22,665 nt of DNA from a virus. Lineage: Duplodnaviria > Heunggongvirae > Uroviricota > Caudoviricetes. Below the pieces are notes generated by a model. It ran no database searches. It was not told the DNA's origin and worked only from the letters and a program-made list of their open reading frames with translations. The stretch's first letter is position 1. The number at the start of each line of letters is the position of its first letter. The stretch spans positions 1-22,665 of the IMG/VR virus record IMGVR_UViG_2744054628_000009; one strand, given 5' to 3'. Shown in pieces: positions 5,635 through 22,665 of the stretch. The translations under genes were made by a program, and so were the position numbers.

Positions 5635-5991
5635 AGACCTACCTTCAGCCAGTTGCGGCTTATAGCTTTCCGGGCAGTTGCCCACGGCAATCAATGCCCC
5701 GGACTCATCAAACAAGCCCACTTCACGTATCCACCAACCGCCCTCGTTTTCAGGGATCACCTGTTCGGCAATAATCTGGCTGCTGTTCTGCGGGTCGATA
5801 TAAAGCATATTCAGCGCAGCCCGGCGTTTCTCATTTACCAGTGCCGTCTGCTTTGCGTCCGGCGTTGGCAATACTCCACTGCCATCGCCCACCGCCATAT
5901 GGGTAATTTTTAGCGGCACACCGAGCGCGGCGGCGCTGGCAAGTTTCGCCGCGCCAATATCCGTCAGCAGGGTATAAAATTTTGTGCTCAT
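5635..5991 (-). pseudogene. H: Tail fiber protein gpH, N-terminal fragment (about 116 aa) fused out of frame to the gpT fragment
   Basis: MSTKFYTLLTDIGAAKLASAAALGVPLKITHMAVGDGSG...ESYKPQLAEG matches the remembered gpH N-terminus; after ...LAEG the frame reads Cys/Gly/Arg-rich nonsense to a stop at 5500. Confidence 0.7.
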
Positions 5992-6593
5992 GGATTCACT
6001 CTCATTGTGTCAATAACATGGACCGCCCCGCCTTCATGCGCGGTGCCACCGGAAATAATCGTTTCGTTGATATACGGATAGATCGTGATTTCTTCGCCAA
6101 GATAGCTGGCGGCTCCCACCCAATGCGGGCCGCTGGTCTGCAGATTGATGGACATGCCGATCATGTGGCGGCTACATGGTTTGGCATCGCTTATCAGTCG
6201 CTCAAGTTCCAGATAGGTATCTTCAGTGATGCCCTGGTCCTGCACGCCGATATCCAGGCGAAACGTGCCCGGTGTTTCTCCGGTCTGCCACCACTCAATA
6301 ATGCGGATCAGGAATCCGAACGGCTCCACCACCCGCCGCACGGCACTGGTGGTCCCTTTATGCTGATGAATATAAAAAGCATCCTTCACCACCTGGCGCT
6401 TGACGCTTTCTGTCCAGCCCTCGTCCCAGCGATCCACAGAGAACGCCCAAGCGAGATAAGGCAGGAAACTGACCGGACAGGTTGCCGGATTCCACAAGTC
6501 ACGAAGCGGCACCTGCAGATCAGAAATCCCGCTGCAAGTTTGCGCCAGTCGGCGCTCCAGTGGTGTTGAACCCGGTGGCAGCAGACTATTCAT
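5988..6593 (-). CDS. I: Baseplate protein gpI-like
   Basis: MNSLLPPGSTPLERRL...RDLWNPATCP...LPYLAWAFSVDRWDE... matches the conserved gpI N-terminal motifs; 4-nt overlap with the H start. Confidence 0.75.
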   Translation of the reverse strand: MNSLLPPGSTPLERRLAQTCSGISDLQVPLRDLWNPATCPVSFLPYLAWAFSVDRWDEGWTESVKRQVVKDAFYIHQHKGTTSAVRRVVEPFGFLIRIIEWWQTGETPGTFRLDIGVQDQGITEDTYLELERLISDAKPCSRHMIGMSINLQTSGPHWVGAASYLGEEITIYPYINETIISGGTAHEGGAVHVIDTMRVNP

Positions 6594-6846
6594 CCGTTCC
6601 TCCGTTGGTTACGCTCCACTGCGTACATGATGCCGCCTGTGTTTTGTTCAGGACCACATCCGCCACCGTGCCGTCAGTGCGCATGACACTGCGAAACTCC
6701 GACAGGTCCACATCAGGCCAGAACGGCGTATTTCTGATGATTTCCGCCTGTTCCGGTGCCTGTTCTGGCGCAACAAACTTCATGCTGCTTTCTCCTGAAA
6801 TAGAGGGCGGTGGACGGGGTTTTGATGTGGCAGTGCCTTTCGCCAC
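6586..6846 (-). pseudogene. Remnant: about 40 N-terminal codons of head completion protein gpL joined to a short 3-prime tail (probably the end of gpJ)
   Basis: The IIRNTPFWPDVDLSEFRSVMRTDGTV motif resembles the gpL N-terminus. The ORF is only 86 aa and its stop overlaps the gpI start as the J stop does in P2. All of X, lysis genes, R, S, V, W and most of J are missing between M and I. Confidence 0.4.
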
Positions 6847-6878
6847 CCCGTGCCGCCCGTGCGCGGGGGCACGTTCTG

Positions 6879-7529
6879 TCAGCGGCTGTCATTGCGCAGT
6901 CTGCGCTCCAGCTGCTGTTTGTCTTTTTTCACGCCACAGCGGGGATCAAGCTGTAACGCATGGTTGAGATGATTAAGGGCGGAAGCCGGATTGCTTTCAC
7001 TCAGGACAGCGCCAATCGCTTTATGCAGACGCGCCCGTGACTGGTCCGGCATATCCAGACCGTCTGTCAGCTCCAGCGTCTGCAACAACAGATCGGCATC
7101 AAAGCCGGTGGCGGCAAGCATTGCGCTCTGCGCGGCGTCTGCCATTTCCTCTGCCAGCACGGTCTGCACGTTGCGGTTACCCAGCGGCATCACCCAGCCA
7201 TGACGCAGGGCATGACGCCCGATCTCCAGCGCCCCGGCATAATCTCCGGCATCAATGCGCCACAGCATCACGTACATCAGCACATCATCCTGTTGAGCGC
7301 CTCCGGCAGCCAGGACACCCTCTGCCCAGGCGGCGTACTTCGGCAGCAGCTCCACCTTGATTTCCGCTTTTTTGACCGTGGACTGAACACCCTTGAGACG
7401 GCGGCGGTCTTCCGCCAGTTGCAGCAGCATCAGGTCATAGCCCGATGCGTGGCGAACACTGCCGCCCTCGCGGGCGGCCTGTTCAGCCTGAACGCGCAGG
7501 CGATGCTGCCGTGCGGGACTCAGGCTCAT
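6879..7529 (-). CDS. M: Terminase small (endonuclease) subunit gpM-like
   Basis: MSLSPARQHRLRVQAEQAAREGG...AQQDDVLMYVMLWRIDAGDYAGALEIGRHAL... matches remembered P2 gpM from residue 1; GGAG ribosome-binding site about 7 nt upstream on the minus strand. Confidence 0.75.
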   Translation of the reverse strand: MSLSPARQHRLRVQAEQAAREGGSVRHASGYDLMLLQLAEDRRRLKGVQSTVKKAEIKVELLPKYAAWAEGVLAAGGAQQDDVLMYVMLWRIDAGDYAGALEIGRHALRHGWVMPLGNRNVQTVLAEEMADAAQSAMLAATGFDADLLLQTLELTDGLDMPDQSRARLHKAIGAVLSESNPASALNHLNHALQLDPRCGVKKDKQQLERRLRNDSR

Positions 7530-9015
7530 GGATTACGCTCCGGTTTCGGCTGCGGCGGCGCTGAAATCACCAATCTGGATGTTTTCCAACCGCAATAAAG
7601 GCCCACGCCGTCAGCCGGAAAAGAATGTTTTCACCGATGAGCAGATTGAGAAGCTGGAAGAAATCTTCCATTCCTCCATGTTCAACTACCAGCGCCACTG
7701 GTGGGAAGCCGGAAAAACCAACCGCATCCGCAACCTGCTGAAGTCACGCCAGATCGGCGCGACCTTCTATTTTGCCCGTGAAGCCCTGATTGACGCCCTG
7801 CTTACCGGACGTAACCAGATTTTCCTTTCTGCCAGTAAGGCTCAGGCCCACGTCTTTAAACAATACATCATCGACTTTGCCAAAGAAGTCGAGGTGGAGC
7901 TAAAAGGCGATCCGATGGTGCTTCCTAACGGAGCCACGCTTTACTTCCTCGGCACCAATGCCCGCACGGCCCAGAGTTATCACGGCAACCTGTATCTGGA
8001 TGAATATTTCTGGATACCGAAATTCCAGGAGCTGCGCAAAGTGGCTTCCGGGATGGCTATTCACAAAAAATGGCGACAAACCTATTTTTCCACGCCATCC
8101 AGCCTGACCCACAGTGCTTATCCGTTCTGGTCCGGTGCGCTGTTCAACCGTGGACGCAACAAAGCTGACAAGGTGGACATCGACCTGTCCCACAGCAATC
8201 TGGCCCCCGGCCTGCTGTGCGCAGACGGGCAATACCGCCAGATAGTCACCGTGGAAGATGCGGTGCGCGGCGGCTGTAACCTGTTCGACCTCGACCAGCT
8301 ACGCATGGAGTACAGCCCGGACGAATACCAGAACCTGCTGATGTGCGAGTTCGTGGACGATCTCGCGTCCGTGTTCCCGCTCAGCGAACTGCAGGCGTGC
8401 ATGGTGGACAGCTGGGAAGTCTGGACCGACTTTCATGCACTGGCCCTGCGCCCGTTTGGCTGGCGCGAAGTGTGGATCGGTTATGACCCGGCAAAAGGTA
8501 CGCAGAACGGCGACAGTGCCGGATGCGTGGTGGTGGCTCCGCCAGCCGTGCCGGGTGGTAAGTTCCGCATTCTTGAGCGTCACCAGTGGCGCGGGATGGA
8601 CTTCCGCGCCCAGGCTGACGCCATCAAAAAACTCACCGAACAGTACAACGTGACCTATATCGGTATCGACTCAACCGGCGTTGGTCACGGGGTTTATGAG
8701 AACGTGAAAGCGTTCTTTCCTGCCGTCCGGGAGTTTGTCTACAACCCCAATGTTAAAAACGCCCTGGTACTCAAGGCCTACGACATTATCAGCCACCGCC
8801 GTCTGGAGTTTGACGCCGGGCACACCGACATTGCGCAGTCATTCATGGCAATCCGTCGCGCCACCACCGCCAGCGGCAACCGCCCGACCTATGAAGCCAG
8901 CCGCAGCGAAGAAGCCAGCCACGCCGATCTGGCCTGGGCAACGATGCACGCACTGTTTAACGAACCGCTGCAGGGCGAATCCGCCAATACCAGCAATATT
9001 GTGGAGATTTTTTGA
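7528..9015 (+). CDS. P: Terminase large (ATPase) subunit gpP-like, probably truncated at the 5-prime end
   Basis: Walker-A-like LKSRQIGAT; 4-nt overlap with the Q start. The M start codon abuts this ORF with no room for the divergent promoters or for O and N. The first 20-30 codons of the ORF are probably not native. True start not determined. Confidence 0.65.
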   Translation: MDYAPVSAAAALKSPIWMFSNRNKGPRRQPEKNVFTDEQIEKLEEIFHSSMFNYQRHWWEAGKTNRIRNLLKSRQIGATFYFAREALIDALLTGRNQIFLSASKAQAHVFKQYIIDFAKEVEVELKGDPMVLPNGATLYFLGTNARTAQSYHGNLYLDEYFWIPKFQELRKVASGMAIHKKWRQTYFSTPSSLTHSAYPFWSGALFNRGRNKADKVDIDLSHSNLAPGLLCADGQYRQIVTVEDAVRGGCNLFDLDQLRMEYSPDEYQNLLMCEFVDDLASVFPLSELQACMVDSWEVWTDFHALALRPFGWREVWIGYDPAKGTQNGDSAGCVVVAPPAVPGGKFRILERHQWRGMDFRAQADAIKKLTEQYNVTYIGIDSTGVGHGVYENVKAFFPAVREFVYNPNVKNALVLKAYDIISHRRLEFDAGHTDIAQSFMAIRRATTASGNRPTYEASRSEEASHADLAWATMHALFNEPLQGESANTSNIVEIF

Positions 9016-10041: not shown

Positions 10042-10066
10042 AAAGTGCCTCTAAAAGAGGCGCTTT
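10042..10066. terminator. Hairpin between the convergent Q and DprA-like genes (possible bidirectional terminator)
   Basis: aaagtgcctct-aaa-agaggcgcttt: an 11-bp stem with one G-T pair, A-rich on the 5-prime side and T-rich on the 3-prime side. Confidence 0.45.
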
Positions 10067-11039
10067 AAATCAAGTCTAATGTACTCTGTTTCCCTGGCCA
10101 TTTTAGCTCTAACAAATACTCCCGAGACTCATTTATGATCATAATCACATCATCATAATCCCGTTTTGTTTTTAACGCTCTAGCCATGTTGCTCTTAACT
10201 AAATCAACTGTTCCCTCACAATTAAGATTAAGCGGATTATTAGGTAGGTGAGGTACAACCGCAAACACTGGTCTTTTCGCCTTATTTGCAAACTCAGCTT
10301 GAGTTATCGTTCCGCTATTTAACGCAGCCTCGATTAAAATTGAACCTGCAGATAATCCAACTTGTATCCGATTTCTTTGTACAAATGATTGTTTCTGGGC
10401 CGGTCGACCCATAGGATACTCAGAAATCCATGCACCACCTTTATCCAGAATCTCTTGAGCAAGTCGACTGTTTTGCTTCGGCTTAGCCTCCTCAAGACCA
10501 TGCGCCAAGACAGCAATGGTTTTTCCTTTTGCTTGTAACGTTGCCTTATGAGCATTCGCATCAGTGCCTATTGCTAACCCACTTACAACAATATACCCAG
10601 CAGACACTATTTGATTAGTGATTCGCCTCGTTATTTCTTCCCCTGCAGGGGAAGTATCACGGGATCCTACAATTGCGACACCCGGCAATTCTTTTAGTAT
10701 ACTTTTATCCCCTTTTATGTAGAGAATTGATGGTGGATTAGGAGTAAACGCTAAACTAAGAGGATAGAATTCAGACCCATATGGTATTAGCTCCACACCA
10801 TTAACATGGTGGTTCTCCAATTCAGCATTCGCTATTAGAAAATCAGTCTCAGATATTTTATCTTTTAGAAACCCGTGGCTATTAACCATCTCAGTTAAGT
10901 CGCGTATATCACGAATAACATCAAAATCAATAAGCTCAAAGAATTTCAATACACTTTGATCAGATGCTAGCTTCCCGATTTGAATAGCTAATCCAAGTGT
11001 ATTTTTTAATTCTTCTGAGTGCACTTTGCTACTCCTCAT
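10065..11039 (-). CDS. shosA: DprA/Smf-like (SLOG-fold) protein; ShosA-like
   Basis: C-terminal region VAIVGSRDTSPAGEEI...SGLAIGTDANAHKATLQAKGKTIAVLAHGLE...QRNRIQVGLSAGSILIEAALNSGTI fits the DprA Rossmann-domain pattern. Start overlaps the upstream PRTase gene by 11 nt; an AGGAG precedes an alternative GTG at 11027. Confidence 0.65.
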   Translation of the reverse strand: MRSSKVHSEELKNTLGLAIQIGKLASDQSVLKFFELIDFDVIRDIRDLTEMVNSHGFLKDKISETDFLIANAELENHHVNGVELIPYGSEFYPLSLAFTPNPPSILYIKGDKSILKELPGVAIVGSRDTSPAGEEITRRITNQIVSAGYIVVSGLAIGTDANAHKATLQAKGKTIAVLAHGLEEAKPKQNSRLAQEILDKGGAWISEYPMGRPAQKQSFVQRNRIQVGLSAGSILIEAALNSGTITQAEFANKAKRPVFAVVPHLPNNPLNLNCEGTVDLVKSNMARALKTKRDYDDVIMIINESREYLLELKWPGKQSTLDLI

Positions 11040-11604
11040 AGTTTGCAGTTTCTAGCAGAGCTAATGGCATTATAACTCCAGCTCCTGCAGACTCCAGTAA
11101 ATAAAAACACGCAGACAAACTACCGCCTGTTGTTTTAACATCATCTAGTAGTAACACATTTCGCCCCATGAGGTTACCACCCCTAACTCTGATACTAGAC
11201 ATGTGACCAGTAATTGAGCGATCTCCTCCTTCACGATGTGCGCTAGGAACAGTGCGTGTTCTTTCCAAACAGCAATCAACAATGCCCCGACGGTGAACAT
11301 TTACGATTCGCTCGGCGACCTCAATCAAAGCCGGTGAAATTCTGCCTTCAGTGTGAGATGGGACGACTGCTATCGAAAAAGGAGACTCAACAAAACGCCC
11401 ACCGCCACCTCTGATTACTAACCGCCCAACCTTATCTATAGCTAATCGAGAAAAACGGTTAATAGCCCTTTGATGATTACGATTATTTTCATCCTTAAAA
11501 TCCATCATCTGCCTTGATAGTTCATCGCTATGAGGGTTGCGCTCTCCCAAATGCCAGTAGGGGTGATACAAGCCACACGATGTAACACTTACGGGTAAAA
11601 GCAT
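11029..11604 (-). CDS. shosT: Phosphoribosyltransferase-domain protein; ShosT-like
   Basis: Type I PRTase PRPP-binding motif VLLLDDVKTTGGSL near residue 150; 191 aa; translationally coupled to the DprA-like gene. Confidence 0.65.
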   Translation of the reverse strand: MLLPVSVTSCGLYHPYWHLGERNPHSDELSRQMMDFKDENNRNHQRAINRFSRLAIDKVGRLVIRGGGGRFVESPFSIAVVPSHTEGRISPALIEVAERIVNVHRRGIVDCCLERTRTVPSAHREGGDRSITGHMSSIRVRGGNLMGRNVLLLDDVKTTGGSLSACFYLLESAGAGVIMPLALLETANYEE

Positions 11605-12660: not shown

Positions 12661-12894
12661 TTAATGCAGCCAGCTGTCGTCCTCCCACACCTTCTGCATA
12701 ATTTTCATCACTTGTTTTCTTTCTTCATCCAGTTGCAGTCCGGTTAGTTCCACACCGTTAGAGCTACCTTTGCGAATGCGAATTACCGTTTTGGGATACA
12801 GGGGGCGCAGATTGCGGTAAAGCTCGGATTCAAGTGCGTCCAGGGTAGACTGGCTAATCTTCTGCTCTTTATCGATCATTATTTCAATGCGCAT
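12661..12894 (-). CDS. DinI-like protein
   Basis: MRIEIMIDKEQKISQSTLDALESELYRNL...KIMQKVWEDDSWL resembles DinI (MRIEVTIAK...). Own GAGGTG ribosome-binding site; the ORF-track start at 12966 is likely an artefactual extension. Confidence 0.7.
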   Translation of the reverse strand: MRIEIMIDKEQKISQSTLDALESELYRNLRPLYPKTVIRIRKGSSNGVELTGLQLDEERKQVMKIMQKVWEDDSWLH

Positions 12895-12904
12895 AAAAGT
12901 CACC

Positions 12905-13093
12905 TCAGCTGATGACATCCATTGAGCGGTTGTATTCGTGGCTTCTGATTTTTGCCATGAGTTCATCAGTCAATTCAGAAACCCACTGCAGAGCCAGCCC
13001 CTTCTCTTCATCACTACACTCACTAGCCGCTACAAGCTTAAGAAAAAAATCAATGCGCTGGAGCTTCAAAGACTCCAAAAAATAGTCCTGCAT
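12905..13093 (-). CDS. Small SOS-regulated protein, first gene of a LexA-controlled operon (Tum-like antirepressor candidate)
   Basis: 62-aa ORF preceded by an AGGAGG ribosome-binding site and a LexA box; its stop overlaps the ribosome-binding site of the DinI-like gene. Function inferred from position only. Confidence 0.5.
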   Translation of the reverse strand: MQDYFLESLKLQRIDFFLKLVAASECSDEEKGLALQWVSELTDELMAKIRSHEYNRSMDVIS

Positions 13094-13245: not shown

Positions 13246-15660
13246 TTAATACAGGTTCCGCCACTTATCATCTTCCTTCAGACGCTGGTTCCGATAGAAG
13301 ATACGCAGGCCTGCTCCTGACGGAATACTGCCGCCGCGAAGGAGCAAATCGACTTCTTTCTCGCTGCCATCAAATCCCCTGGACTTCAGTTCATAGACGA
13401 GCTGCTGTCGCTGATGGTCTGTAATTCGCTGTTTGTAGTCTTTACGCCGTTTCGGTTTCACCTGGCGTAACCTTGCAGCCAGTTCCCGGCGCTCTTTTTT
13501 GCTCATACTGTGCAGGTAATCGTGCAACTCCTTGTCATTCATACGGGTAATATCCGTTCTGGAGTCCCCATCAGCTGATTTGTCTTTCCCTTGTTGGTTC
13601 AAATTTTCAGCAAGGGGACAGTTATTGCCACGAGTCCAAGGGGCGCAAGCGCCCTGGTCGGCTGCCGCCTCCTGAACGTCAACGACCTTACGAACCATTT
13701 TCCATTTCATTGCATGAGTGCAGATCTTGCCCTGTACAATGGGTGACCAGATGCCATAAATACGAATACCGTGATCGCCATAAGCGGTCGGCTCTTCGTT
13801 AATTTCATAAGCTGTTCTGATAAGGTGATATTTGCGGGGAACCAGTACGCCGCCCTGCTTCATGATGTAGGTGGCAAAACAGCCAGCATCAGCGGCAGCC
13901 AGGATGGCATCAAGGCGCGGGTCATCCAGTACCGGCGCACCTGCTTTTTTATCACCCTGTTGCCTTGCCGCCTGACCAGCCAGCAAGCGAAGTTCACGGT
14001 ACGCCTGACGCCCCGGAATACCAAAGAAGCGGAACTGCTGAACACGATGCAGAGACGCCCAGGCATTAACGTATTCGGCGTTATCACGCAGGGATTTACC
14101 CGTTTCCTTGCTGATCTCGCCAGCCAGACCACGTCCGTCAATGTTCTTACTGATGTATTTCGCGATGTAGCTTGTCGGCGTTCCTTTGCGCGGGTTTATC
14201 AGCTCAGACTTAAAGCGTGGACCCGTGTTATTGCCCAGTTCCTCGCGGTCTTCACGGATGGCAAACTTACGCAACAATGCAGTAATGGCGCGGCGGTCTT
14301 TTTTGCGCATGAAACACATGAGATGCCAGTGCACAGTACCGTCATGGTGCGGCTCAGCCACCCGCACGCCATACCAGCGCAACCCGGCTTTGTGCATAGC
14401 CTTACGAAATGCAGCAAACATGCCGACCAGATAATCGCTGCTTTGTCTTACCGTCGCATTTGTCCAGGTTGGGTTTGGTCTGCCGTTATTGAGCGTAGAA
14501 TGGAAACGTGACGGACAGGTAATGGTGTAGAAAACGGCGCAGTCACCACGCATTTCCGCGATAAGCTCCAGACCTTTAACACAGGCCATCATCTCATTGC
14601 GGCGGTGCGCCGGGTTGCTGCTGCTGGCGTTTACCACGTCTTCCATATCCAGCGTGTCGCCGTCTTCGTTCACCAGTTCATGAGAACGGAAAAACTCCAG
14701 CGACTTGCGGCGCTGCTCACGTTTATGCGTCACTGCTTCATAGCTGACATAGGGAGATGCTTTTTTGCTGACCAGGCAGACAGCACGCAACTGCTCTTCC
14801 CGCCATTCGCAACGTATCTTCCACAATTTTCGATACCACCAGTCGGCGCAAAGCATACGTGCCAGCGAACCCGGTATGAGTTCATAGGGCACGGGTTTGC
14901 GGCGGTTTCTTTTCCGACGGAGTTTCTCAAACGCAGGCGGGATAACATCCAGACGCAGGGTTTCCGCTGCCACCTTTTCCCATGTCTTGCGGATTTCTTC
15001 TGGCTTAACGTCATCGGAGGCATACAAATCACCACAAGCGGCCTCAAGACACATGCTCATATGCGCTGCTACCAAGGTGGACAGGCGTTTTACCTGATCC
15101 TGACTCATTTCAGGTAGGATCAGCAGGCCCTCAAGCCCTTGATGGCTTGCCATAAAACGGAAAGAAGCGGATAGCTGACTGTCGCGTACATACTCCAGTC
15201 GCTCCAGACATGACTTAATCGTCTCACGCAAATAGCGGGAATAAGCCTTTGGCCTGCCCAGGCTGCTGAAGTATTCGATACGTTGCATCAGCGGCTTGCT
15301 GATGTGGGTGGGCTGGGCGCTGACGTCCGCCAGAATGACCATGTCCGGGTTAAAACGCTGCTGCTCATGCGCCAGCTTTGCCCGACTAATGAGATTATCC
15401 TGCTCCATTTCGCGCTGGACAGGATCACGGGATTCATTAAAGAAATAACGCTCCCAGACCTGCTCACTCAGTGCATCGCGGCGCAGCTGTTCCTGCTCGT
15501 TATCGGCAGCGTACAAAGTGATCATGTTTGAAAGTGCAGACTCCGGCGCAACTTCCGCCGGGTCCAGATAAGGGTTAATGGCCTTTTTCGGGCCGTTCCA
15601 TGAAAATGCTGCAGCGGCCTCGTTAAAGCCGCTAGAGTTGCTCATATCATCATGACTCAT
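13246..15660 (-). CDS. A: Replication initiation protein gpA-like (rolling-circle nickase)
   Basis: 804-aa ORF at the end of the early operon with an ATGA overlap to the upstream dam gene; sequence recalls P2/186 gpA. Confidence 0.8.
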
Positions 15661-16513
15661 ACACGCACCTCGTACACAGCAGAACTATCCACGCCACGCG
15701 AAGGATCAAATCCCACCCAGCAGCGCGCCCCGGAAACAGCAATGATTTCTGTTGCAGATTTACTCTCGCCAGCCGACACGCCGATGCTGCGTTTTGCCTT
15801 GATGTAGTGGTGAGTGAAATTGCGATACAGCGAACGAATCAGGGATGTGTCACTGTTAGAAACAATGACCGGATGACCTTCAGATGATCGATGTTCAAGA
15901 ACGGATGCCAGGTGATACTGGTCATCCTCAGTGAAGCCATCAGTGTGATAGCCGGAAAACGTACCGTCATAAGGCGGATCGCAATACACCACATCCCCCG
16001 CCTTCAACATCGCCAGCGTTTCATCAAAGCTGGCGCAGATAAACGTTGCTCGCTGGGCTTTTTCTGCAAATTTGCGAATTTCTTTTTCAGGGAAATACGG
16101 ATTTTTATAATTCCCGTAGGGAATGTTGAATGCCCGCTCTTGTTATAGCGACATAACCCACGGTAACCATGACGATTGAGATACAGGAAATATACCGCTT
16201 TCATGAAATCAGTAATTTCAGTGGAGTAATTAAACTCCTGCCTTATGTTGTAATAAGCCACCTCCCTGTTTGCTTCCTCAAATAAAGCTCTGGCACGAGA
16301 TATAAACGCCTCGCAATCAGCAGCAACCTTTTTATAGAGGTTGATTAAATCAGGATTAATATCCGCAACAAGATAGCTGGGGTAATCCGTCTCTATCATC
16401 ACAGCACAAGAACCCGCGAAAGGTTCAACCAGTCGCGGGCCAGCAGGAAGGTATTTTTTCAGTTCTGGCATAATGGCGGTTTTATTACCCGCCCATTTCA
16501 GGATGGTGCTCAT
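15657..16513 (-). pseudogene. dam: DNA adenine methyltransferase (Dam-like) with a frameshift near 16129-16131
   Basis: N-terminal ORF has motif I ([11 protein letters not shown]) and ...[17 protein letters not shown]; the -1 frame continues [38 protein letters not shown]...VVYCDPPY (motif IV). One base missing in a short homopolymer. Confidence 0.8.
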
Positions 16514-16737
16514 ACAGCACCTCCGTTGTAATGTTTGCCTTTCAGCTCTGCGATTTCCTGACAGGTAATGCAAAGCTGCACACCCGGAATGGCGCGACGT
16601 CGTGCTGGCGGAATTGGTGCTTCACACTCAATGCAAAGCACGCGGGATACGCCCGGCGTTTTGGCGCGGGCAGCACGGATATGACGCTGGCGTTCTTCTT
16701 CAACGCGCTGCTGTACGAGATCCATTGCATCAGCCAT
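16510..16737 (-). CDS. TraR/DksA-family C4 zinc-finger protein
   Basis: C-x2-C ... C-x2-C pattern ([26 protein letters not shown]); AGGAG ribosome-binding site; ATGA overlaps with both neighbours. Confidence 0.7.
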
Positions 16738-17379: not shown

Positions 17380-17543
17380 TGGTTCCCCCGTTTTTTCGTT
17401 GATAGTTCTGCCAGCAATTCATCTTGTGAACGGCACGGATGCCAGCGTTTACCATCCTCACCCATGATCCAGCCGTGACCGTAGTGCATTGCCGGACTTT
17501 GTTTTACCAGCAGCGATGCAAATGATGGTTCTTTCGTCAGCAT
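17343..17543 (-). CDS. Hypothetical early-operon protein (66 aa)
   Basis: GAGGTG ribosome-binding site overlapping the cII stop; ATG at 17543; the longer ORF-track version (start 17573) overlaps cII. Confidence 0.5.
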   Translation of the reverse strand: MLTKEPSFASLLVKQSPAMHYGHGWIMGEDGKRWHPCRSQDELLAELSTKKRGNQWLLKALRRLFH

Positions 17544-17550
17544 AAGCACC

Positions 17551-18066
17551 TCACAGCAAACCGAATGAAGCACCGAGGCCAGTCACGGTATCAACTGCAC
17601 TCGCCATCGCAGGATTAGCCTGTAAACGGGCCTGCAATGAAACAGCAGCCAGCGCCATCAGTCGTGTAACAGAGTTAATGCTGCTGATCGCATCACGACG
17701 GCCTGCACTGGTTTTTACATCGCCAGAAACCGCACCTGCCGCGACACGCCCTATCTCTGCAGTTGCACTCATGACGTAATGCGGCAGTTTCTCTTTTGCC
17801 ACCTCATTAATCGGTACACATGGCAGGCAGTGAATCTGTGCCAGAAAGCCATCTACCAGCGTTGAATCTTCAGTCAGATCGGTAAGCAGCCAGATTTCTG
17901 GCGCATTGAGCTGATGCGGTTGATCTGGGTTGAGTTTGTTTCGCAGAGTCTGGACATTCATTCCTGCACGTTCTGCCAGCTTCGCCATATTGTGACGAAG
18001 TGCAAAAGCTCTACAGGCTTCATCAAAATGCGGGTGTTTGGAAACTTGGTAATCAAACATGGTCAA
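17551..18066 (-). CDS. cII: Phage 186 CII-like lysogeny-establishment activator
   Basis: [47 protein letters not shown]... closely matches remembered 186 CII; 171 aa versus about 169 aa. Confidence 0.8.
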
Positions 18067-18092
18067 TGCCTCTGATGTATTTCAGAATCGAA

Positions 18093-18314
18093 CTAATTAA
18101 GGTTTAGATTGCATTCTGAAAGCGCATCAACGGTCATGGCTGCTATGTTGATCATCACTTTTTCGCGTTTTTTATCTTTCCGCAGACGGTGACGGATAAG
18201 ACGTCCATCAGCCAACATGTCATTGATAGTATCGATGGATAGCCCTGTCAGCTCGCTATAACGTTCAATAGTCACATGAGGCGTGGTAAGAGTGATTGAA
18301 ATGTTAGGTTTCAT
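18093..18314 (-). CDS. apl: Apl-like excisionase / transcriptional regulator
   Basis: 73-aa basic protein that is the first gene of the lytic operon, divergent from cI, as in phage 186. Confidence 0.65.
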
Positions 18315-18386
18315 GATGCAACATTCCTCGTTTAATGTTGATTAATCAGGACGAATACGGATCGTTTGTATTTTGTGAACATCATA

Positions 18387-18415
18387 AACATACGATCGCA
18401 TAGTGAAATCGTCAA
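18387..18415 (-). promoter_or_regulatory. Candidate lytic promoter pR driving apl-cII
   Basis: On the minus strand: TTGACG (18410-18415), 17-nt spacer, TATGTT (18387-18392). Flanked by inverted gtgaac (18379-18384) / gttcac (18424-18429), a possible operator. Confidence 0.5.
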
Positions 18416-18439
18416 GACAAAAGTTCACTTGGAGTGACC

Positions 18440-19009
18440 ATGAATTTGGAGAAAGGCGGACGAGGCGCTATAGAGCGCATGGTAGAAGCATATGGCTTCA
18501 AGACTCGACAGGCGTTGTGCGATCACTTAGGAATCTCTAAAAGTACTCTCGCCACACGCTATATGCGTGACTCATTCCCTGCTGAATGGGTAATCCAGTG
18601 CGCACTTGAAACGGGCGCCTCGCTTAACTGGCTCACGACCGGACATGGTTCAAAGCAAACTTCAGGTAATACAAATACTATGGAAGTCGTTAAATATGTA
18701 TTATCTGATGGAACCTTGCAGGAAGATGGTTTTTATATTTTCGATAAAGAATTTCTACCATCTACGCTCAAAAATCCGTTTGTAATCACCGATAACAATT
18801 CCGTTTTTATTTGCGATAAAGAGTTTAACGATATTCGTGACGGCAAATGGGTAATAAGTATTGATGCCGAAGTAACAATCCGCGATATCACTCGTTTACC
18901 TGGTGGAAGAATCTTAGTTGAAGGTGGAAATAGGGCTTTCGAATGTAAAAAAGAAGAAATTGAAATTATTGGAAAAATTATAAGCATAACAGTTAAGTAC
19001 TTTGAGTAA
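18440..19009 (+). CDS. cI: 186-type CI immunity repressor
   Basis: N-terminal HTH motif AIERMVEAYGFKTRQALCDHLGISKSTLATRYMRDSFPAEWVIQCALETG plus a CI C-terminal-type domain. GGAG at 18431-18434 precedes the ATG at 18440; an alternative in-frame GTG is at 18434. Confidence 0.75.
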   Translation: MNLEKGGRGAIERMVEAYGFKTRQALCDHLGISKSTLATRYMRDSFPAEWVIQCALETGASLNWLTTGHGSKQTSGNTNTMEVVKYVLSDGTLQEDGFYIFDKEFLPSTLKNPFVITDNNSVFICDKEFNDIRDGKWVISIDAEVTIRDITRLPGGRILVEGGNRAFECKKEEIEIIGKIISITVKYFE

Positions 19010-19059
19010 TATAGGAATGTTTTTATGCTTGGTAAAGCATTTGTTGTGGTGTAAAAAAT

Positions 19060-19983
19060 ATGTCAACTCAAAAATTAAAATTTAGCCATATCAAAAACGA
19101 TCTGAAAGCAATAGTTATGCAGAATCGTGGAGGGCAAAAAGTTATTGAGCGTATACTCCTAGCCTATGGCTTCAAGTCACGACAGGCATTATGTAATCAT
19201 CTAGGTATTTCCCAAAGTACTATGGCCAACAGATATGCACGTAATACCTTTCCTGCAGATTGGGTTGTTATATGTTCCATAGAAACAGGAGCATCAATTG
19301 AATGGTTAGTTCTTGGTTCAGATACTGCTCCTTCATCAAAGCAATATTCTGAAAAACATGCCGTTAATGGCCTTTGCAATGAAGTATACATTCCCACTAT
19401 AAAGTTCGATAATGAAAAACTCATGAATTTTAACCGAGGGGGTAAGGCAACAATAGAACGAATTGTCGAGGCTTACGGTTACAAAACGCGCCAAGCATTA
19501 GCTGATCACCTAGGTATTTCAAAAAGCACATTAGCCACACGATACATGCGTGACATTTTTCCTGCAGACTGGGTTTTGCAGTGTGCAATAGAAACGGGCC
19601 ATTCTATTGAATGGATTTCATTTGGTACAGGAGAAATGAAAAACGCAAAAAATAAAGATACTTTAACATTAGTGAAAAAAGTATTAATCAATGGCAAGTT
19701 AATAAATGATGGCTCATATTTATTTGACCCATGCTTTCTACCTTCCAATTTAAAAAATGCATTCGTAGTATCTACCGAAGACTCTGAATTAATATGTGAA
19801 ATAGGTTTTAAAGATGTACATGATGGTAAGTGGCTAGTAAATATTGATGGAGAGAATTCATTTAGAATGATAACTCGACTACCTAAAGGACGAGTTTATA
19901 TTTCATCCCAAAATCACTCTTTTGAATGTTCGCTTACAGACATTGAGTTTATTGCAAAAGTTATTATAAGTTGTTTACATTAA
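19060..19983 (+). CDS. CI-repressor paralog with two tandem N-terminal HTH domains and a CI-like C-terminal domain
   Basis: Two HTH copies (about aa 22-85 and 127-190) each resemble the cI N-terminus; the second is roughly 85% identical by eye. The C-terminal part aligns with the cI C-terminus (LPSNLKN..., DGKWL.NID..., ITRLP.GR). AT-rich. Confidence 0.65.
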   Translation: MSTQKLKFSHIKNDLKAIVMQNRGGQKVIERILLAYGFKSRQALCNHLGISQSTMANRYARNTFPADWVVICSIETGASIEWLVLGSDTAPSSKQYSEKHAVNGLCNEVYIPTIKFDNEKLMNFNRGGKATIERIVEAYGYKTRQALADHLGISKSTLATRYMRDIFPADWVLQCAIETGHSIEWISFGTGEMKNAKNKDTLTLVKKVLINGKLINDGSYLFDPCFLPSNLKNAFVVSTEDSELICEIGFKDVHDGKWLVNIDGENSFRMITRLPKGRVYISSQNHSFECSLTDIEFIAKVIISCLH

Positions 19984-20008
19984 GTAAATTTTTCATGGAG
20001 ACTTCATA

Positions 20009-21526
20009 GTGAAATGTGGTGATTGTAATTGGAACTGGGATGAAGAAACTACCTTTATATTAGACGACGAAGAGGAAATTCTTTCCAAAGACAAACTTAA
20101 TCGGAGACACTATGCAGAATATCTATATTTTTATCTTAAGGAAAAGGGGAAAAAGAACAACACGGTAATCAACCTTAATGCAGAATGGGGAGCTGGTAAA
20201 AGTTTTTTCATAAAGAGATTTTATAACTCAATAAAAGATGCACACCCATGCGTTTACATTGATGCCTGGAAGCAAGACTTTTCTGATGATGCATTTTTAA
20301 CCCTTTTTTCTTCTTTGTCACAACAATTGCAAACATATGCAGGAAAACTTGATGCTCGATTGATACAAAGCGGCCATGCTATCGGACGCTTTACAAAAGG
20401 TGTTCTACCTGAAATCATATCTGGCCTAATCAAGACTTATGCAGGAGTAGATAACGTAGGTGATATAGCCAAAGAAGCCTCATTAATAATGCTGAAGGAA
20501 CACCAGGAAAAACTGAAGAGCATTAAGGTATTAAAAAAAGAACTAACGTTATGGTCTAGGTTGGCATATGAAAATAGTTTTTCATATCCTATATTTATCT
20601 TTATAGATGAATTAGACAGATGCAGGCCAGATTATGCAATTTCTCTTTTAGAGATTGTTAAACATATATTCGATATTAAAAATTTTGTCTTTATTATTGC
20701 TACTGACACAGATCAATTACAACATTCAATCAAGAATGTTTACGGTAATGATTTTTCCGCAAATGACTATTTAGGCCGTTTTTTTCATAGAAGATTTACT
20801 TTAAAACAACCTGAACTTAAAGATTTAATTAATGGTGTTGTTGGTGATTATATTGGTACCGATTTTGAAAATATCACATCAAAAACATACCCACTAACAG
20901 CAACATTAGAAGACTTTTCAATAAATATTTCCAACGTATTTGAAGCATTTGGGTTAAATCTAAGAGACTCAATCCGAAATACTGAAAGGTTAATAGACAT
21001 TCTTAAATCTGATTTAGTCAAAAAGAAAGTAGATTATATTTTTATAATTTCGCTAATGATTATATATGATAAGGATCGTCAAATTATAGATGGACTAATT
21101 GGTCGAAGAAATGCAGCACAACGTTTCACTGATTCGATAAAGCAAAGCTCCAATTTAAAAGGTGTTTCTCAAGCCATCCTTGAATTAAATCTTGATACAA
21201 ATCAGCAAAGAATAGGTGTCAATTATATCTATAGAACGGCGAGCAGTAGATTATTCATCTCACAGATCGAGCCCAAAATAAATTTAACATTAATAAATTA
21301 CTTAGATGTTGCATTGTATTTTATTAATAATATAAACATGCTTAAATCAAGTATAAAAAACAATGGGCAAAATTCACTAATGATTATATCTCAACAAGGC
21401 CCTATTGATGGTGATACAGCTATAAAGTATTTGCAAGGAGCCCTTATAGAGAATGGTCTGAATACATCTTTTTATGCCTTACATAATTACATTGAATTAA
21501 TTGAACTGGCCACATCATTTGATTAA
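20009..21526 (+). CDS. KAP-family P-loop NTPase (PifA-like)
   Basis: Walker A GAGKSFF (about aa 60) and Walker B IFIFIDELDRCRP (about aa 196), in the form typical of KAP NTPases; GTG start with GGAG 8 nt upstream; strongly AT-rich, 505 aa. Confidence 0.65.
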   Translation: MKCGDCNWNWDEETTFILDDEEEILSKDKLNRRHYAEYLYFYLKEKGKKNNTVINLNAEWGAGKSFFIKRFYNSIKDAHPCVYIDAWKQDFSDDAFLTLFSSLSQQLQTYAGKLDARLIQSGHAIGRFTKGVLPEIISGLIKTYAGVDNVGDIAKEASLIMLKEHQEKLKSIKVLKKELTLWSRLAYENSFSYPIFIFIDELDRCRPDYAISLLEIVKHIFDIKNFVFIIATDTDQLQHSIKNVYGNDFSANDYLGRFFHRRFTLKQPELKDLINGVVGDYIGTDFENITSKTYPLTATLEDFSINISNVFEAFGLNLRDSIRNTERLIDILKSDLVKKKVDYIFIISLMIIYDKDRQIIDGLIGRRNAAQRFTDSIKQSSNLKGVSQAILELNLDTNQQRIGVNYIYRTASSRLFISQIEPKINLTLINYLDVALYFINNINMLKSSIKNNGQNSLMIISQQGPIDGDTAIKYLQGALIENGLNTSFYALHNYIELIELATSFD

Positions 21527-21588
21527 AAGCATTGTTTGAATAAACTAAACCATACATTGACCACTGGTCAAACATACAGTTAAATTTA

Positions 21589-21612
21589 GCCCTCTGATAT
21601 GAGGGCTTTATT
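21589..21612 (+). terminator. Rho-independent terminator ending at the int start codon
   Basis: gccctc-tgatat-gagggc followed by tttatt, then ATG at 21613. Confidence 0.6.
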
Positions 21613-22665
21613 ATGGCAGTACGAAAACTCACCACAGGAAAATGGCTTTGCGAATGTTACCCCGCCGGACGTAGTGGGCGTCGTGTGCGTAAACAATTCG
21701 CCACCAAAGGCGAAGCACTGGCTTTTGAGCGTCACACGATGGAAGAAACCGAAGCAAAGCCCTGGCTGGGTGAATCAGTGGATCGTCGAACACTGAAAGA
21801 CGTGGTTGAGCTATGGTTCAAACTACATGGTAAATCTCTGACTGCTGGGCAGCATGTCTATGACAAATTGCTGCTGATGGTTGACGCTCTGGGCAATCCC
21901 CTTGCAACTGATCTAACCTCTAAAATGTTTGCCCACTATCGAGATAAACGCCTGACAGGTGAGATCTACTTCAGTGAGAAATGGAAGAAAGGAGCAAGCC
22001 CGGTCACCATTAACCTGGAGCAAAGCTATCTAAGTAGTGTTTTTAGCGAACTATCCCGCCTGGGCGAATGGTCGTATCCGAACCCACTGGAGAACATGCG
22101 AAAATTCACCATCGCAGAAAAAGAGATGGCATGGCTTACCCATGAGCAGATTGTTGAATTACTAGCTGATTGCAAACGTCAGGACCCAATTCTGGCACTG
22201 GTAGTTAAGATATGCTTAAGCACAGGCGCACGCTGGCGAGAAGCCGTAAATCTTACCCGCTCACAGGTGACCAAATACCGAATTACCTTTGTAAGAACGA
22301 AGGGGAAGAAAAACAGAAGCATCCCTATCAGTAAAGAGCTTTACGAAGAGATCATGGCGCTTGATGGGTTCAATTTCTTCACAGACTGCTATTTTCAATT
22401 TTTATCCGTGATGGAAAAAACGTCTATCGTGCTCCCTCGCGGTCAACTCACACACGTTCTGCGCCATACGTTTGCGGCGCACTTCATGATGTCGGGTGGA
22501 AACATTCTGGCCTTACAAAAAATTCTCGGACACCACGATATAAAAATGACTATGCGTTACGCACATCTGGCACCGGATCATCTGGAAACGGCGCTCCGTT
22601 TCAATCCTCTGGCAACGCTGCCAAGTGGCGACAAAGTGGCGGCAGCGGTTGGCATTACCCCGTAA
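21613..22665 (+). CDS. int: Tyrosine integrase (P2/186 Int family)
   Basis: 350 aa; C-terminal catalytic region ...HVLRHTFAAHFMMSGGNILALQKILGHHDIKMTMRYAHL with the conserved R/H/R/Y arrangement; sits at the end of the prophage opposite ogr. Confidence 0.85.
   Translation: MAVRKLTTGKWLCECYPAGRSGRRVRKQFATKGEALAFERHTMEETEAKPWLGESVDRRTLKDVVELWFKLHGKSLTAGQHVYDKLLLMVDALGNPLATDLTSKMFAHYRDKRLTGEIYFSEKWKKGASPVTINLEQSYLSSVFSELSRLGEWSYPNPLENMRKFTIAEKEMAWLTHEQIVELLADCKRQDPILALVVKICLSTGARWREAVNLTRSQVTKYRITFVRTKGKKNRSIPISKELYEEIMALDGFNFFTDCYFQFLSVMEKTSIVLPRGQLTHVLRHTFAAHFMMSGGNILALQKILGHHDIKMTMRYAHLAPDHLETALRFNPLATLPSGDKVAAAVGITP

What the first reader, a model, noticed from the sequence alone, without database searches (positions are those of the whole stretch)
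19060..21526. AT-rich two-gene cargo between cI and int: tandem-HTH CI paralog plus KAP-family NTPase
In phage 186 the cI gene is followed by int. Here two extra genes are inserted in the same orientation, with base composition visibly lower in G+C than the flanking prophage or host DNA. One is a second CI-like protein with a duplicated DNA-binding domain; the other is a 505-aa P-loop NTPase whose Walker A/B motifs fit the KAP family, which includes the F-plasmid T7-exclusion protein PifA. A repressor-like regulator or sensor paired with a KAP NTPase in a prophage cargo slot is a plausible abortive-infection or superinfection-exclusion module, and I do not recognise it as a named system.
Basis: partly seen in the sequence, partly recalled or inferred. 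Interest (0 to 1): 0.8.

Follow-up and report, generated by a model that had tools for sequence, protein, structure and literature searches.

The report
Prophage cargo: KAP NTPase plus spare repressor
A 2.5-kb AT-rich insert between the repressor and integrase genes of a defective 186-like E. coli prophage carries two unlinked genes: a stand-alone KAP-family ATPase already listed as a candidate anti-phage gene, and a recombinant second repressor that came along with it.

Summary
Window 19051-21550 (33% GC; flanks 48-51%) lies between the prophage's own cI and int. It encodes a 307-aa CI protein with two HTH domains and a 505-aa KAP P-loop NTPase.

The reading as a paired module is not supported:
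- The NTPase matches PADLOC's single-gene candidate family PDC-S20 (E 8e-78).
- Relatives at 34-80% identity sit in the same cI-int slot in Klebsiella, Enterobacter, Yersinia and E. coli prophages, behind an ordinary single-HTH cI. Others lie outside prophages.
- Tandem-HTH CI proteins are the sole, normally placed repressor of a sister immunity class. This covers Klebsiella phage 4LV2017, E. coli prophages at the same rcdA site and 51 IMG/VR loci. None of them carries the NTPase.
- The window's copy is a chimera. Its front half comes from the tandem class. Its HTH2-CTD-KAP-int stretch is colinear with a Klebsiella cI-KAP-int block.

The slot is a real cargo hotspot. One sibling prophage carries P2 Old there.

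Most likely the NTPase is a lysogen-expressed, single-gene anti-phage ATPase. Its fold is closest to RADAR RdrA, and its C-terminal domain matches no solved structure. The extra cI is a by-product of cassette capture and may add immunity to tandem-class phages. Neither function has been tested. This is a new member of known kinds, of moderate interest.

The parts
18315..18433 (.). pR/pL switch region of the resident (single-HTH) immunity type. It contains a 186-type inverted-repeat CI site, TTCACTTGGAGTGAC, at 18424-18438.
   Evidence: The region is 91% identical to the common L003-type prophage. The site matches the 186 FL/FR/pB pattern ATTCAC-N5-GTGAAT. The same inverted repeat occurs in 12 of 19 dereplicated single-class switch regions and in 0 of 26 tandem-class ones.
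18434..19009 (+). Resident cI immunity repressor (191 aa; RefSeq starts it at 18440).
   Evidence: PF07022 3e-33 and PF16452 7e-27. It is divergent from apl/cII as in phage 186.
19025..19054 (+). Truncated remnant (9 codons) of the 63-aa ORF that normally fills the slot. The left junction of the insert is at 19050/19051.
   Evidence: Homology to L003 ends at 19050, 26 nt into its 63-aa ORF. Homology to tandem-class cI starts at 19052, 8 nt before the ATG.
19051..21550 (+). Low-GC (0.329) cargo cassette in the cI-int slot of the lysogenic operon.
   Evidence: Boundaries come from blastn against sibling prophages.
19060..19983 (+). Chimeric second cI (307 aa): HTH1 (about 19126-19314), linker, HTH2 (19447-19641), CTD (19678-19965).
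   Evidence: Two PF07022 stretches plus PF16452; 186 CI structure 2FJR at E 1e-22. Bases 19052-19627 are 79% identical to the tandem-class cI of L014 and 4LV2017. Bases 19465-22624 run colinear at 77% with the Klebsiella single cI-KAP-int block of L005.
20009..21526 (+). KAP-family P-loop NTPase (505 aa) of the PADLOC PDC-S20 family. Walker A is at 20189-20203 and Walker B at 20591-20623. The C-terminal domain, with no match among solved structures, spans 20894-21526.
21551..21612 (+). Conserved element upstream of int, forming the right-hand anchor of the slot. It holds a promoter-like TTGACC-N18-TAAATT (21557-21586) and a hairpin AGCCCTC-TGATAT-GAGGGCT followed by a T-rich run (21588-21607 onwards).
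   Evidence: Homology to every sibling resumes here at 95-98% whatever the cargo. The aligned sequences are and the motif scan. Its function is inferred only.
21613..22665 (+). Tyrosine integrase, last gene of the lysogenic operon, next to the rcdA attachment site.
   Evidence: PF24624 3e-32 and PF00589 7e-22; RefSeq context.

Best explanation
Window 19051-21550 is a horizontally acquired, AT-rich cassette in the accessory slot between cI and int. That slot lies in the lysogenic (pL/pE) operon of a 186-type prophage, which is itself degraded in this window. The cassette holds two functionally independent genes.

(1) The 505-aa KAP P-loop NTPase is a stand-alone defence candidate of the PADLOC PDC-S20 family.
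- Inferred expression: it is transcribed with cI in the lysogen.
- Inferred mechanism: its AAA+/STAND-like NTPase core acts as an NTP-dependent switch, and its closest fold is the RADAR sensor ATPase RdrA. The conserved C-terminal domain, which matches no solved structure, senses a phage product or delivers the block to heterologous phages. This parallels other single-gene KAP defences, which need an intact Walker B.

(2) The 307-aa tandem-HTH cI is a by-product of how the cassette arrived.
- Recombination within the conserved HTH-coding sequence fused the HTH1-linker-HTH2 front of a tandem-class immunity repressor to the HTH2-CTD of the single-HTH cI natively linked to KAP.
- The block was then joined by an illegitimate junction 41 bp downstream of the resident cI.
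- The gene is intact. It keeps the recognition helices of the tandem class, and its cognate direct-repeat operator is absent from the window.
- If expressed, it would therefore act in trans as a spare repressor and extend superinfection immunity to tandem-class 186-like phages.

Shown: domain content, mosaic structure, independence of the two genes and variability of the slot. Inferred: co-transcription from pL, anti-phage activity of KAP and heteroimmunity from the spare cI.
For: Independence of the two genes:
- KAP relatives lie directly behind a single-HTH cI and before int in Klebsiella (80% identity), Enterobacter (63%) and E. coli (34%, also PDC-S20 at 4.6e-82). In Yersinia (51%) an extra phrog_2628 gene sits between cI and KAP. 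A 48%-identity Pectobacterium relative and a Pseudoalteromonas relative (41% over three quarters of the protein) are chromosomal and stand alone.
- Among the 80 best IMG/VR KAP loci, 4 (98-99% identity, the window lineage) have a tandem HTH upstream, about 24 have a single-HTH cI plus int, and 47 lie in other viral contexts.
- Of 78 IMG/VR cI loci, 51 have a tandem cI as the sole repressor next to apl/cII. These show at least 12 different cI-int gap sizes, and none has KAP.

Tandem cI as a true immunity class:
- It is the sole cI in phage 4LV2017 and in E. coli prophages at the same rcdA site. Those prophages share a different apl and a different switch region.
- About 45 clusters of 290-330-aa CI proteins occur across Enterobacterales.
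- The operator geometry is class-specific.

Chimera: blastn mosaic map and junction sequences. The best single-HTH matches to the CTD half lie on the same contigs as KAP orthologues.

Hotspot:
- At least six different contents were seen between the same flanks, including P2 Old (PADLOC 1.2e-233).
- Rousset 2022 describes a cI-int defence hotspot in K139-like phages (PMC9122126).
- The int-primase interval holds 8% of P2 defence systems (10.64898/2026.02.27.708500).

Operon logic: the 186 record annotates pL/pE as driving cI-int-orf69. No convincing terminator lies between cI, cI-2 and KAP, and the spacers are 50 and 25 bp.

KAP as defence:
- PDC-S20 7.7e-78, PifA 2e-16, QatA 6e-14.
- Single-gene KAP proteins have been validated as antiphage, with Walker B required (PMC12632615). 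Reve is a validated single-gene KAP in P4 hotspots.
- Within-lineage polymorphism in KAP is 12 synonymous to 12 nonsynonymous changes, pN/pS about 0.26.
- The same prophage also carries ShosTA in the classical P2 hotspot.
Against: - No experiment shows that this KAP or any PDC-S20 member protects against phage. PDC-S20 is only a catalogue candidate.
- Co-transcription from pL is inferred by analogy with 186. The promoter scan was at background level (15 found, 15.3 expected).
- For the spare cI, polymorphism (2 synonymous, 5 nonsynonymous; pN/pS about 0.7) is compatible with no selection.
- An analogous duplicated cI in IMG/VR locus L158 has decayed to a pseudogene.
- The gene has no obvious Shine-Dalgarno sequence.
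- HTH2 has the same recognition helix as the resident CI. Action on the prophage's own switch cannot be excluded.
- The direct-repeat operator assignment is a sequence inference from related, non-independent loci.
Confidence: 0.62

Rival explanations
1. First reader's model. The tandem-HTH CI-like protein and the KAP NTPase form one two-gene abortive-infection or exclusion system, with the CI-like protein as regulator or sensor (for example of an incoming antirepressor) and KAP as effector.
For: The genes are adjacent on the same strand with a 25-bp spacer, share the low GC, and always co-occur in the 17 E. coli genomes and 4 IMG/VR contigs of this lineage. Many defence systems have an HTH regulator upstream (general knowledge).
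Against: The co-occurrence is a single lineage at 97.5% identity or more. Every other KAP relative examined in a 186-type prophage follows an ordinary phage cI or another cargo gene. Further relatives stand alone in chromosomes. None of 51 tandem-cI loci has KAP. The cI is a recombination chimera whose 3' half is the cI natively linked to KAP. PADLOC models PDC-S20 as a single-gene candidate.
Confidence: 0.07
2. The second cI is an inert recombination scar. It is either not expressed or non-functional, and only KAP matters. The cassette gives no added immunity.
For: The left junction is illegitimate and cuts a small ORF. Homologous crossover within HTH2 would keep the reading frame without any selection. 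pN/pS is about 0.7 on 7 changes. L158 shows a comparable duplicated cI decayed into a pseudogene. No Shine-Dalgarno sequence precedes the ATG.
Against: The ORF is intact in all 21 copies seen. The native tandem-class cI genes have the same SD-less leader from -8. The gene lies inside an operon whose upstream and downstream genes must both be expressed. Its recognition helices are identical to those of functional tandem-class repressors.
Confidence: 0.3
3. The second cI acts on the prophage's own switch. It would bind the resident TTCAC operators through HTH2, or form mixed oligomers through its CTD. This would lock the degraded prophage in lysogeny or make it insensitive to a Tum-type antirepressor.
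For: The HTH2 recognition helix GISKSTLATRYMRD is identical to that of the resident CI, and the CTDs are about 50% identical. Both operator classes share the TTCAC core. The prophage encodes a DinI-domain (Tum-like) protein.
Against: Tandem-class switches lack the inverted-repeat geometry (0 of 26) and single-class switches lack the direct repeat (0 of 19), which argues for distinct binding modes. No evidence exists for hetero-oligomers. The window prophage has already lost its head and tail genes, so the benefit of stabilisation is unclear.
Confidence: 0.1
4. The KAP NTPase is not a defence gene. It would serve the prophage or host in another way, such as lysogeny maintenance, a membrane or signalling function, or a selfish addiction module.
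For: No phenotype is known. The authors quoted suggest that phage restriction is not PifA's primary function. There is no recognisable effector domain.
Against: The gene is dispensable for 186-type phages: it is absent from 186 and from most siblings. It occupies a slot that carries P2 Old in a sibling. It matches defence-candidate HMMs. Its closest folds are defence ATPases. It moves between prophage and island contexts.
Confidence: 0.15

Closest known systems
PADLOC candidate system PDC-S20 (single-gene KAP NTPase)
   Same: The best HMM match is PDLC04959 at E 7.7e-78 over residues 20-389. Three further PDC-S20 models also hit. The protein occurs as a single gene in mobile contexts.
   Different: PDC-S20 is only a bioinformatic candidate. 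No paper in the searched library names it and no phenotype is known. The profile does not cover the last 115 or so residues of the window protein.
Validated single-gene KAP defences: Reve (P4 hotspot; 10.64898/2026.02.27.708500) and EF_KAP and relatives (PMC12632615)
   Same: These are single proteins with a KAP P-loop domain plus an uncharacterised C-terminal region, carried in mobile-element hotspots. EF_KAP requires Walker B. Reve (plasmid pFD425) protects against Drexlerviridae.
   Different: Similarity to Reve is limited to the Walker A region (BLASTP E 1e-4 over 51 aa). EF_KAP has N-terminal transmembrane helices, whereas the window protein has none. The C-terminal domains are unrelated.
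RADAR RdrA (PDB 8FNT, 8FNU)
   Different: Sequence identity is 11-13%. RdrA is about 790 aa and works with the RdrB adenosine deaminase, and no such partner is present here.
F-plasmid PifA (T7 exclusion)
   Same: Both have a KAP-family NTPase domain (PADLOC PifA E 1.9e-16, residues 26-273).
   Different: The match covers only positions 15-261 of the 720-position PifA profile. The window protein is not an orthologue, and nothing else aligns.
Prophage cI-int defence hotspot (K139-like Vibrio phages, Rousset 2022) and P2 Old
   Same: Variable cargo lies between the repressor and integrase of P2-related prophages. A sibling prophage at the same rcdA site carries Old in exactly this slot.
   Different: Rousset described the slot in Vibrionaceae. 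In Enterobacterales 186-type prophages it appears only inside the broader 'integrase-primase' interval of the 2026 survey.
Phage 186 CI repressor (PDB 2FJR, 2FKD)
   Same: The HTH domain and the wheel-forming CTD are both present (E 1e-22). The TTCAC half-site core is shared.
   Different: The window protein has two HTH domains per chain. The tandem class pairs with direct repeats (T/A)TCACA-N14-(T/A)TCACA rather than inverted repeats. Here the gene sits downstream of another cI, without its own operator region.

Membership tests
KAP family P-loop NTPase (Pfam PF07693) | Match to the family HMM above the curated threshold | tested here: met
   156.3 bits against a cutoff of 20, E 1.3e-45, residues 32-303.
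KAP family P-loop NTPase (Pfam PF07693) | Intact Walker A (GxxGxGK[ST]) and Walker B (hhhhDELDRC) motifs | tested here: met
   GAGKS at aa 61-65 and IFIFIDELDRC at aa 195-205. G61, G63, K64 and D200-C205 are invariant in 41 homologues.
KAP family P-loop NTPase (Pfam PF07693) | Transmembrane helices inserted in or flanking the NTPase domain. This is typical of many members (Aravind et al. 2004, from memory; EF_KAP in PMC12632615). | tested here: not met
   The highest Kyte-Doolittle 19-residue mean is 1.43, and it falls in a core strand. The insert region at aa 116-148 is a low-confidence amphipathic helix. The feature is not universal in the family.
PADLOC PDC-S20 candidate | Match to the PDC-S20 HMMs | tested here: met
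   PDLC04959 7.7e-78, PDLC04956 1.9e-46, PDLC04957 8.8e-33, PDLC04958 9.8e-26. This library has no curated cutoff.
PADLOC PDC-S20 candidate | Functions as a single gene, with no conserved partner | tested here: met
   The neighbours differ among the Klebsiella, Enterobacter, Yersinia, E. coli, Pectobacterium and Pseudoalteromonas contexts.
PADLOC PDC-S20 candidate | Demonstrated anti-phage phenotype | not testable with these tools
   No paper in the library names PDC-S20.
PifA | Full-length orthology to the 720-position PifA profile | tested here: not met
   Only profile positions 15-261 align, at E 1.9e-16.
RADAR (RdrA + RdrB) | RdrA-like ATPase together with an adjacent RdrB adenosine deaminase | tested here: not met
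Qat (QatABCD) | QatA equivalog score and QatBCD neighbours | tested here: not met
   NCBIfam QatA scores 43.5 bits against a cutoff of 600. No Qat partners are present.
186-type CI immunity repressor | N-terminal CI HTH (PF07022) plus C-terminal oligomerisation domain (PF16452) | tested here: met
   Two PF07022 stretches plus PF16452; 2FJR at E 1e-22.
186-type CI immunity repressor | [quoted passage not shown] | tested here: not met
   The feature is met by the resident cI (18434-19009). The tandem cI lies 50 bp downstream of it, and its homology to tandem-class genes starts only 8 nt before the ATG. No tandem-class direct-repeat operator occurs anywhere in the window.
   The pairing is seen only in one lineage at 97.5% identity or more. 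It is absent from about 24 other KAP-in-slot loci and from 51 tandem-cI loci.
Prophage defence hotspot | Conserved flanks with variable, often defence-related content | tested here: met
   The flanks are 91-98% identical. The contents seen were a 63-aa ORF, KAP 505, KAP 483, 349+201-aa hypotheticals, Old and a phrog_2628 protein. At least 12 gap sizes occur in IMG/VR.

The most novel reading that the evidence does not exclude
The spare tandem-HTH cI is not a scar but a selected 'borrowed repressor' defence. The prophage would express the DNA-binding head of a competing immunity class, which reads direct-repeat operators, so its host becomes immune to a second, common class of 186-like phages. 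Cassette exchange in this slot would routinely move repressor C-terminal domains together with defence genes. A still bolder variant is that the extra CI acts as the phage sensor that licenses the KAP NTPase.
Probability: 0.2. Interest if true: 0.65.

Novelty: new member of a known kind. Interest (0 to 1): 0.4.

Why it matters
If the NTPase protects against phage, it would give a first phenotype to a widespread catalogue candidate (PDC-S20; 891 database hits at E 1e-10 or better, and 339 IMG/VR contigs with relatives). It would also add a soluble, transmembrane-free subtype to the newly validated single-gene KAP defences. Its confidently modelled C-terminal domain matches no solved structure and could be tested for a sensor or effector role.

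The locus also documents the cI-int interval of enterobacterial 186-type prophages as a defence slot, holding Old, KAP and several unknowns. The recombination that swaps its cargo runs through the repressor gene itself.

The tandem-HTH CI class is common and looks uncharacterised. It appears to pair with direct-repeat instead of inverted-repeat operators. That is a testable variation on the well-studied 186 CI wheel.

None of this overturns current ideas.

Tried and rejected
- The promoter/terminator scan of 18000-22000 found promoter-like sites at background level (15 found, 15.3 expected). No convincing terminator lies between cI, cI-2 and KAP, so it gives no evidence for a separate cargo promoter.
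- The Rfam scan of 17500-22665 found nothing.
- The PDB sequence search with KAP found nothing. The afdb50 fold library was unavailable.
- The validated KAP system Reve was recovered from a preprint supplement and compared. It shares only Walker-A-level similarity, so it is not the same family.
- The 349-aa cargo of 4LV2017 is unrelated to KAP.
- NCBIfam has no specific model for either protein.
- The dN/dS test within the lineage is underpowered, with 7 changes in the tandem cI and 24 in KAP.
- My first guess at a 21-bp direct-repeat period was wrong. The correct spacing is N14, a 20-bp period.
- The 186-type inverted repeat is not enriched window-wide (2 found, 0.65 expected; 11 of 100 shuffles reach 2). 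Its meaning rests on its position and on the class comparison.
- I considered that the tandem architecture arose by local duplication in this prophage and rejected it. The front half is 79% identical in DNA to tandem-class genes elsewhere.
Full report
**1. What is there**

The window carries a 186-type prophage integrated next to rcdA/ybjJ. The same cI-to-int block occurs at 97.5-100% identity in 17 of 5,426 complete E. coli genomes, including EPEC E2348/69 at 99.6%.

On the + strand the order is as follows:
- cI, 18434-19009: PF07022 plus PF16452.
- A 307-aa ORF, 19060-19983: two PF07022 HTH domains plus PF16452.
- A 505-aa ORF, 20009-21526: PF07693 KAP_NTPase, E 1.3e-45.
- int, 21613-22665.

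apl-like and cII genes are divergent on the other side of the switch. G+C falls to 0.33 across 19051-21550. The rest of the prophage is 0.51 and int is 0.485. In phage 186 itself, cI directly abuts int. The record annotates pL and pE as driving a cI-int-orf69 lysogenic operon.

**2. The two genes are not a pair**

The KAP protein matches PADLOC's single-gene candidate family PDC-S20 (PDLC04959, E 7.7e-78). It matches PifA and QatA only at the level of the NTPase domain.

Homologues sit in exactly this slot without any tandem cI:
- Klebsiella, 80% identity: cI (186 aa) - KAP - int.
- Enterobacter, 63%: the same arrangement.
- Yersinia, 51%: cI - phrog_2628 protein - KAP - int.
- E. coli, 34%, also PDC-S20 at 4.6e-82: cI - KAP - int at the same rcdA site.

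A 48%-identity relative in Pectobacterium, and a Pseudoalteromonas relative (41% over three quarters of the protein), are chromosomal and stand alone.

A scan of IMG/VR found 339 viral contigs with relatives. Among the best 80:
- Only the 4 belonging to the window's own lineage (98-99% identity) have a tandem HTH upstream.
- About 24 have an ordinary single-HTH cI upstream and int downstream.
- 47 lie in unrelated viral contexts.

**3. The tandem-HTH CI is a normal repressor class, and this copy is a chimera**

- In Klebsiella phage 4LV2017 the only cI, in the canonical position, is a 313-aa tandem-HTH protein 61% identical to the window's. The HTH regions are much more conserved than the CTD, judged from the alignment.
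- E. coli prophages at the same rcdA site (L014, L015, L016) have a 292-313-aa tandem cI as sole repressor. They share a different apl and a different, shorter switch region. This makes them a separate immunity class.
- The protein database holds about 45 clusters of 290-330-aa CI proteins across Enterobacterales.
- In IMG/VR, 51 of 78 cI loci have a tandem cI as the sole repressor. None of them has KAP.

A blastn mosaic map shows the origin of each segment:
- Window 18001-19050 is the common L003-type prophage at 91% identity. This covers cI plus the first 26 nt of the 63-aa ORF that usually fills the slot. A 9-codon remnant survives at 19025-19054.
- 19052-19627 is 79% identical to the front (HTH1-linker-HTH2) of tandem-class cI genes, starting only 8 nt before the ATG.
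- 19465-22624 is colinear at 77% with the Klebsiella block 'single-HTH cI - KAP - int'.

The overlap, 19465-19627, is the HTH2-coding sequence and is the obvious crossover point. The closest single-HTH relatives of the CTD half lie on the same contigs as KAP orthologues, judged by matching contig lengths.

The 'paralogue' is therefore a fusion. It joins a tandem-class DNA-binding head to the cI natively linked to KAP, and it sits behind the resident cI through an illegitimate junction. A comparable accident is visible in IMG/VR locus L158, which reads cI - KAP - decayed cI pseudogene - ORF - int.

**4. The slot is a cargo hotspot**

Between the same flanks I found:
- a 63-aa ORF, the commonest content among the listed siblings;
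- this cassette;
- a 483-aa KAP;
- 349-aa plus 201-aa hypothetical proteins;
- a 314-aa phrog_2628 protein;
- P2 Old (PADLOC E 1.2e-233).

IMG/VR tandem-class loci show at least 12 distinct cI-to-int distances. Homology between siblings always resumes at about 21551. There a conserved 60-bp leader of int begins, with a promoter-like TTGACC-N18-TAAATT and a hairpin followed by a T-rich run.

Within the window lineage the cargo is 99% or more conserved, while int varies up to pS 0.30. Exchange therefore happens at this anchor.

The literature already describes a cI-int defence hotspot in K139-like Vibrio phages (PMC9122126). It also counts the integrase-primase interval as holding 8% of P2 defence systems (10.64898/2026.02.27.708500).

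**5. The KAP protein**

- Walker A and B are intact and invariant.
- There is no transmembrane segment, unlike many KAP proteins.
- The AlphaFold model (pLDDT 80.7) shows an N-terminal beta-hairpin, the NTPase core with a poorly ordered helical insert (aa 116-148), a helical lid and a C-terminal alpha/beta domain.
- PHROGs lists the family as function unknown.

Single-gene KAP proteins have recently been shown to block phages:
- EF_KAP and three metagenomic relatives protect, and EF_KAP needs Walker B (PMC12632615).
- Reve, from a P4 hotspot, is active against Drexlerviridae.
- I recovered Reve's sequence from the supplement. It shares only the Walker A region with the window protein.

Within-lineage polymorphism in KAP (12 synonymous, 12 nonsynonymous; pN/pS about 0.26) hints at constraint.

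**6. What the spare cI might do**

Its two recognition helices are essentially identical to those of sole-repressor tandem proteins. HTH1 reads GISQSTMANRYAR and HTH2 reads GISKSTLATRYMRD. HTH2 also equals the resident CI helix.

Phage 186's annotated FL, FR and pB sites are ATTCAC-N5-GTGAAT inverted repeats. In dereplicated IMG/VR switch regions:

| Switch class | Inverted repeat TTCAC-N5-GTGA(C/A) at the cI start | Direct repeat (T/A)TCACA-N14-(T/A)TCACA |
|---|---|---|
| Single-HTH | 12 of 19 | 0 of 19 |
| Tandem-HTH | 0 of 26 | 13 of 26 |

These loci are related, so the counts are not independent. The window has the inverted repeat at 18424-18438 and no direct repeat anywhere in its 22.6 kb.

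The spare repressor thus lacks a cognate operator in cis. If made, it would most simply act in trans on incoming tandem-class phages. By a rough reading of the evenly spaced rows, such phages are present in a sizeable minority of E. coli genomes that carry this prophage family.

Selection on the gene cannot be shown (2 synonymous, 5 nonsynonymous changes). The L158 pseudogene shows that such duplicates can simply decay.

**7. Verdict**

The finding is real, but it is two things rather than one system.
- The NTPase is a new, untested member of a catalogued candidate family. It sits in a prophage slot of a kind already known to hold defence genes.
- The second repressor is a recombination chimera of a common but apparently unstudied tandem-HTH CI class.

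The mechanism beyond 'NTP-dependent switch plus unknown C-terminal domain' is inferred. Interest is moderate.

**8. Context noticed**

- The window's prophage is a deleted and rearranged derivative of the E2348/69 copy.
- Its dam gene is frameshifted.
- It also carries a ShosTA-type pair in the classical gpA-portal hotspot.

Noticed in passing
window 10065-11604 (- strand): A second defence locus sits in the classical P2 gpA-portal hotspot. It pairs a DprA-like ShosA (PADLOC 2.8e-70; PF02481) with a 191-aa ShosT-like protein (3.6e-14), a ShosTA / DprA-PRTase-type pair.
   Followed up: partly
window 15657-16573 (- strand): The prophage dam methylase is split by a frameshift into two ORFs. They match PF02086 positions 1-150 and 175-253. 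The gene is intact (285 aa) in E2348/69.
   Followed up: partly
window 5639-7588: Relative to the E2348/69 prophage, the window copy is deleted and rearranged, with junctions near 5640, 6665 and 7587. Most head, lysis and tail genes are missing. It is a cryptic prophage that still keeps both cargo slots.
   Followed up: partly
window 21551-21612: A conserved 60-bp leader of int holds a promoter-like TTGACC-N18-TAAATT and the hairpin AGCCCTC-TGATAT-GAGGGCT plus a T-rich run overlapping the int ribosome-binding region. It is present, with stem variation, in every sibling regardless of cargo. It may be an int-specific promoter or attenuator and a recombination anchor.
   Followed up: partly
L158 5013-9654 (IMG/VR UViG_3300027766_000138): The arrangement is cI - KAP (71% identity) - degraded cI pseudogene with stops and frameshifts (7400-7990) - 194-aa ORF - int. 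This is an independent case of cI duplication left by cassette exchange, and here the copy has decayed.
   Followed up: yes
L109-L161 (tandem class) and L155-L182 (single class), switch regions upstream of cI: Operator geometry tracks repressor architecture. Single-HTH cI loci have a TTCAC-N5-GTGAC inverted repeat (12 of 19), and tandem-HTH loci have a TCACA-N14-TCACA direct repeat (13 of 26). There is no overlap between the classes.
   Followed up: partly
L016 4448-5392; L011 4986-5969: An unknown protein of 314-327 aa (phrog_2628) recurs in the cI-int slot. It is alone in an E. coli prophage and sits upstream of KAP in Yersinia. It is another candidate cargo or defence gene.
   Followed up: no
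L183 (NZ_JBRERE010000002.1, labelled plasmid pE100181_149): The same cI - tandem cI - KAP - int block lies on a 149.8-kb record annotated as a plasmid. Its int is far more divergent (pS 0.30) than the cargo (pS 0.016 or lower). This shows recombination between KAP and int.
   Followed up: partly
window 12661-12966 (- strand): A 101-aa protein with a C-terminal DinI domain (PF06183, 1.2e-22) lies next to gpA, at the position of the 186 Tum antirepressor. It bears on whether either CI can be inactivated by SOS.
   Followed up: no
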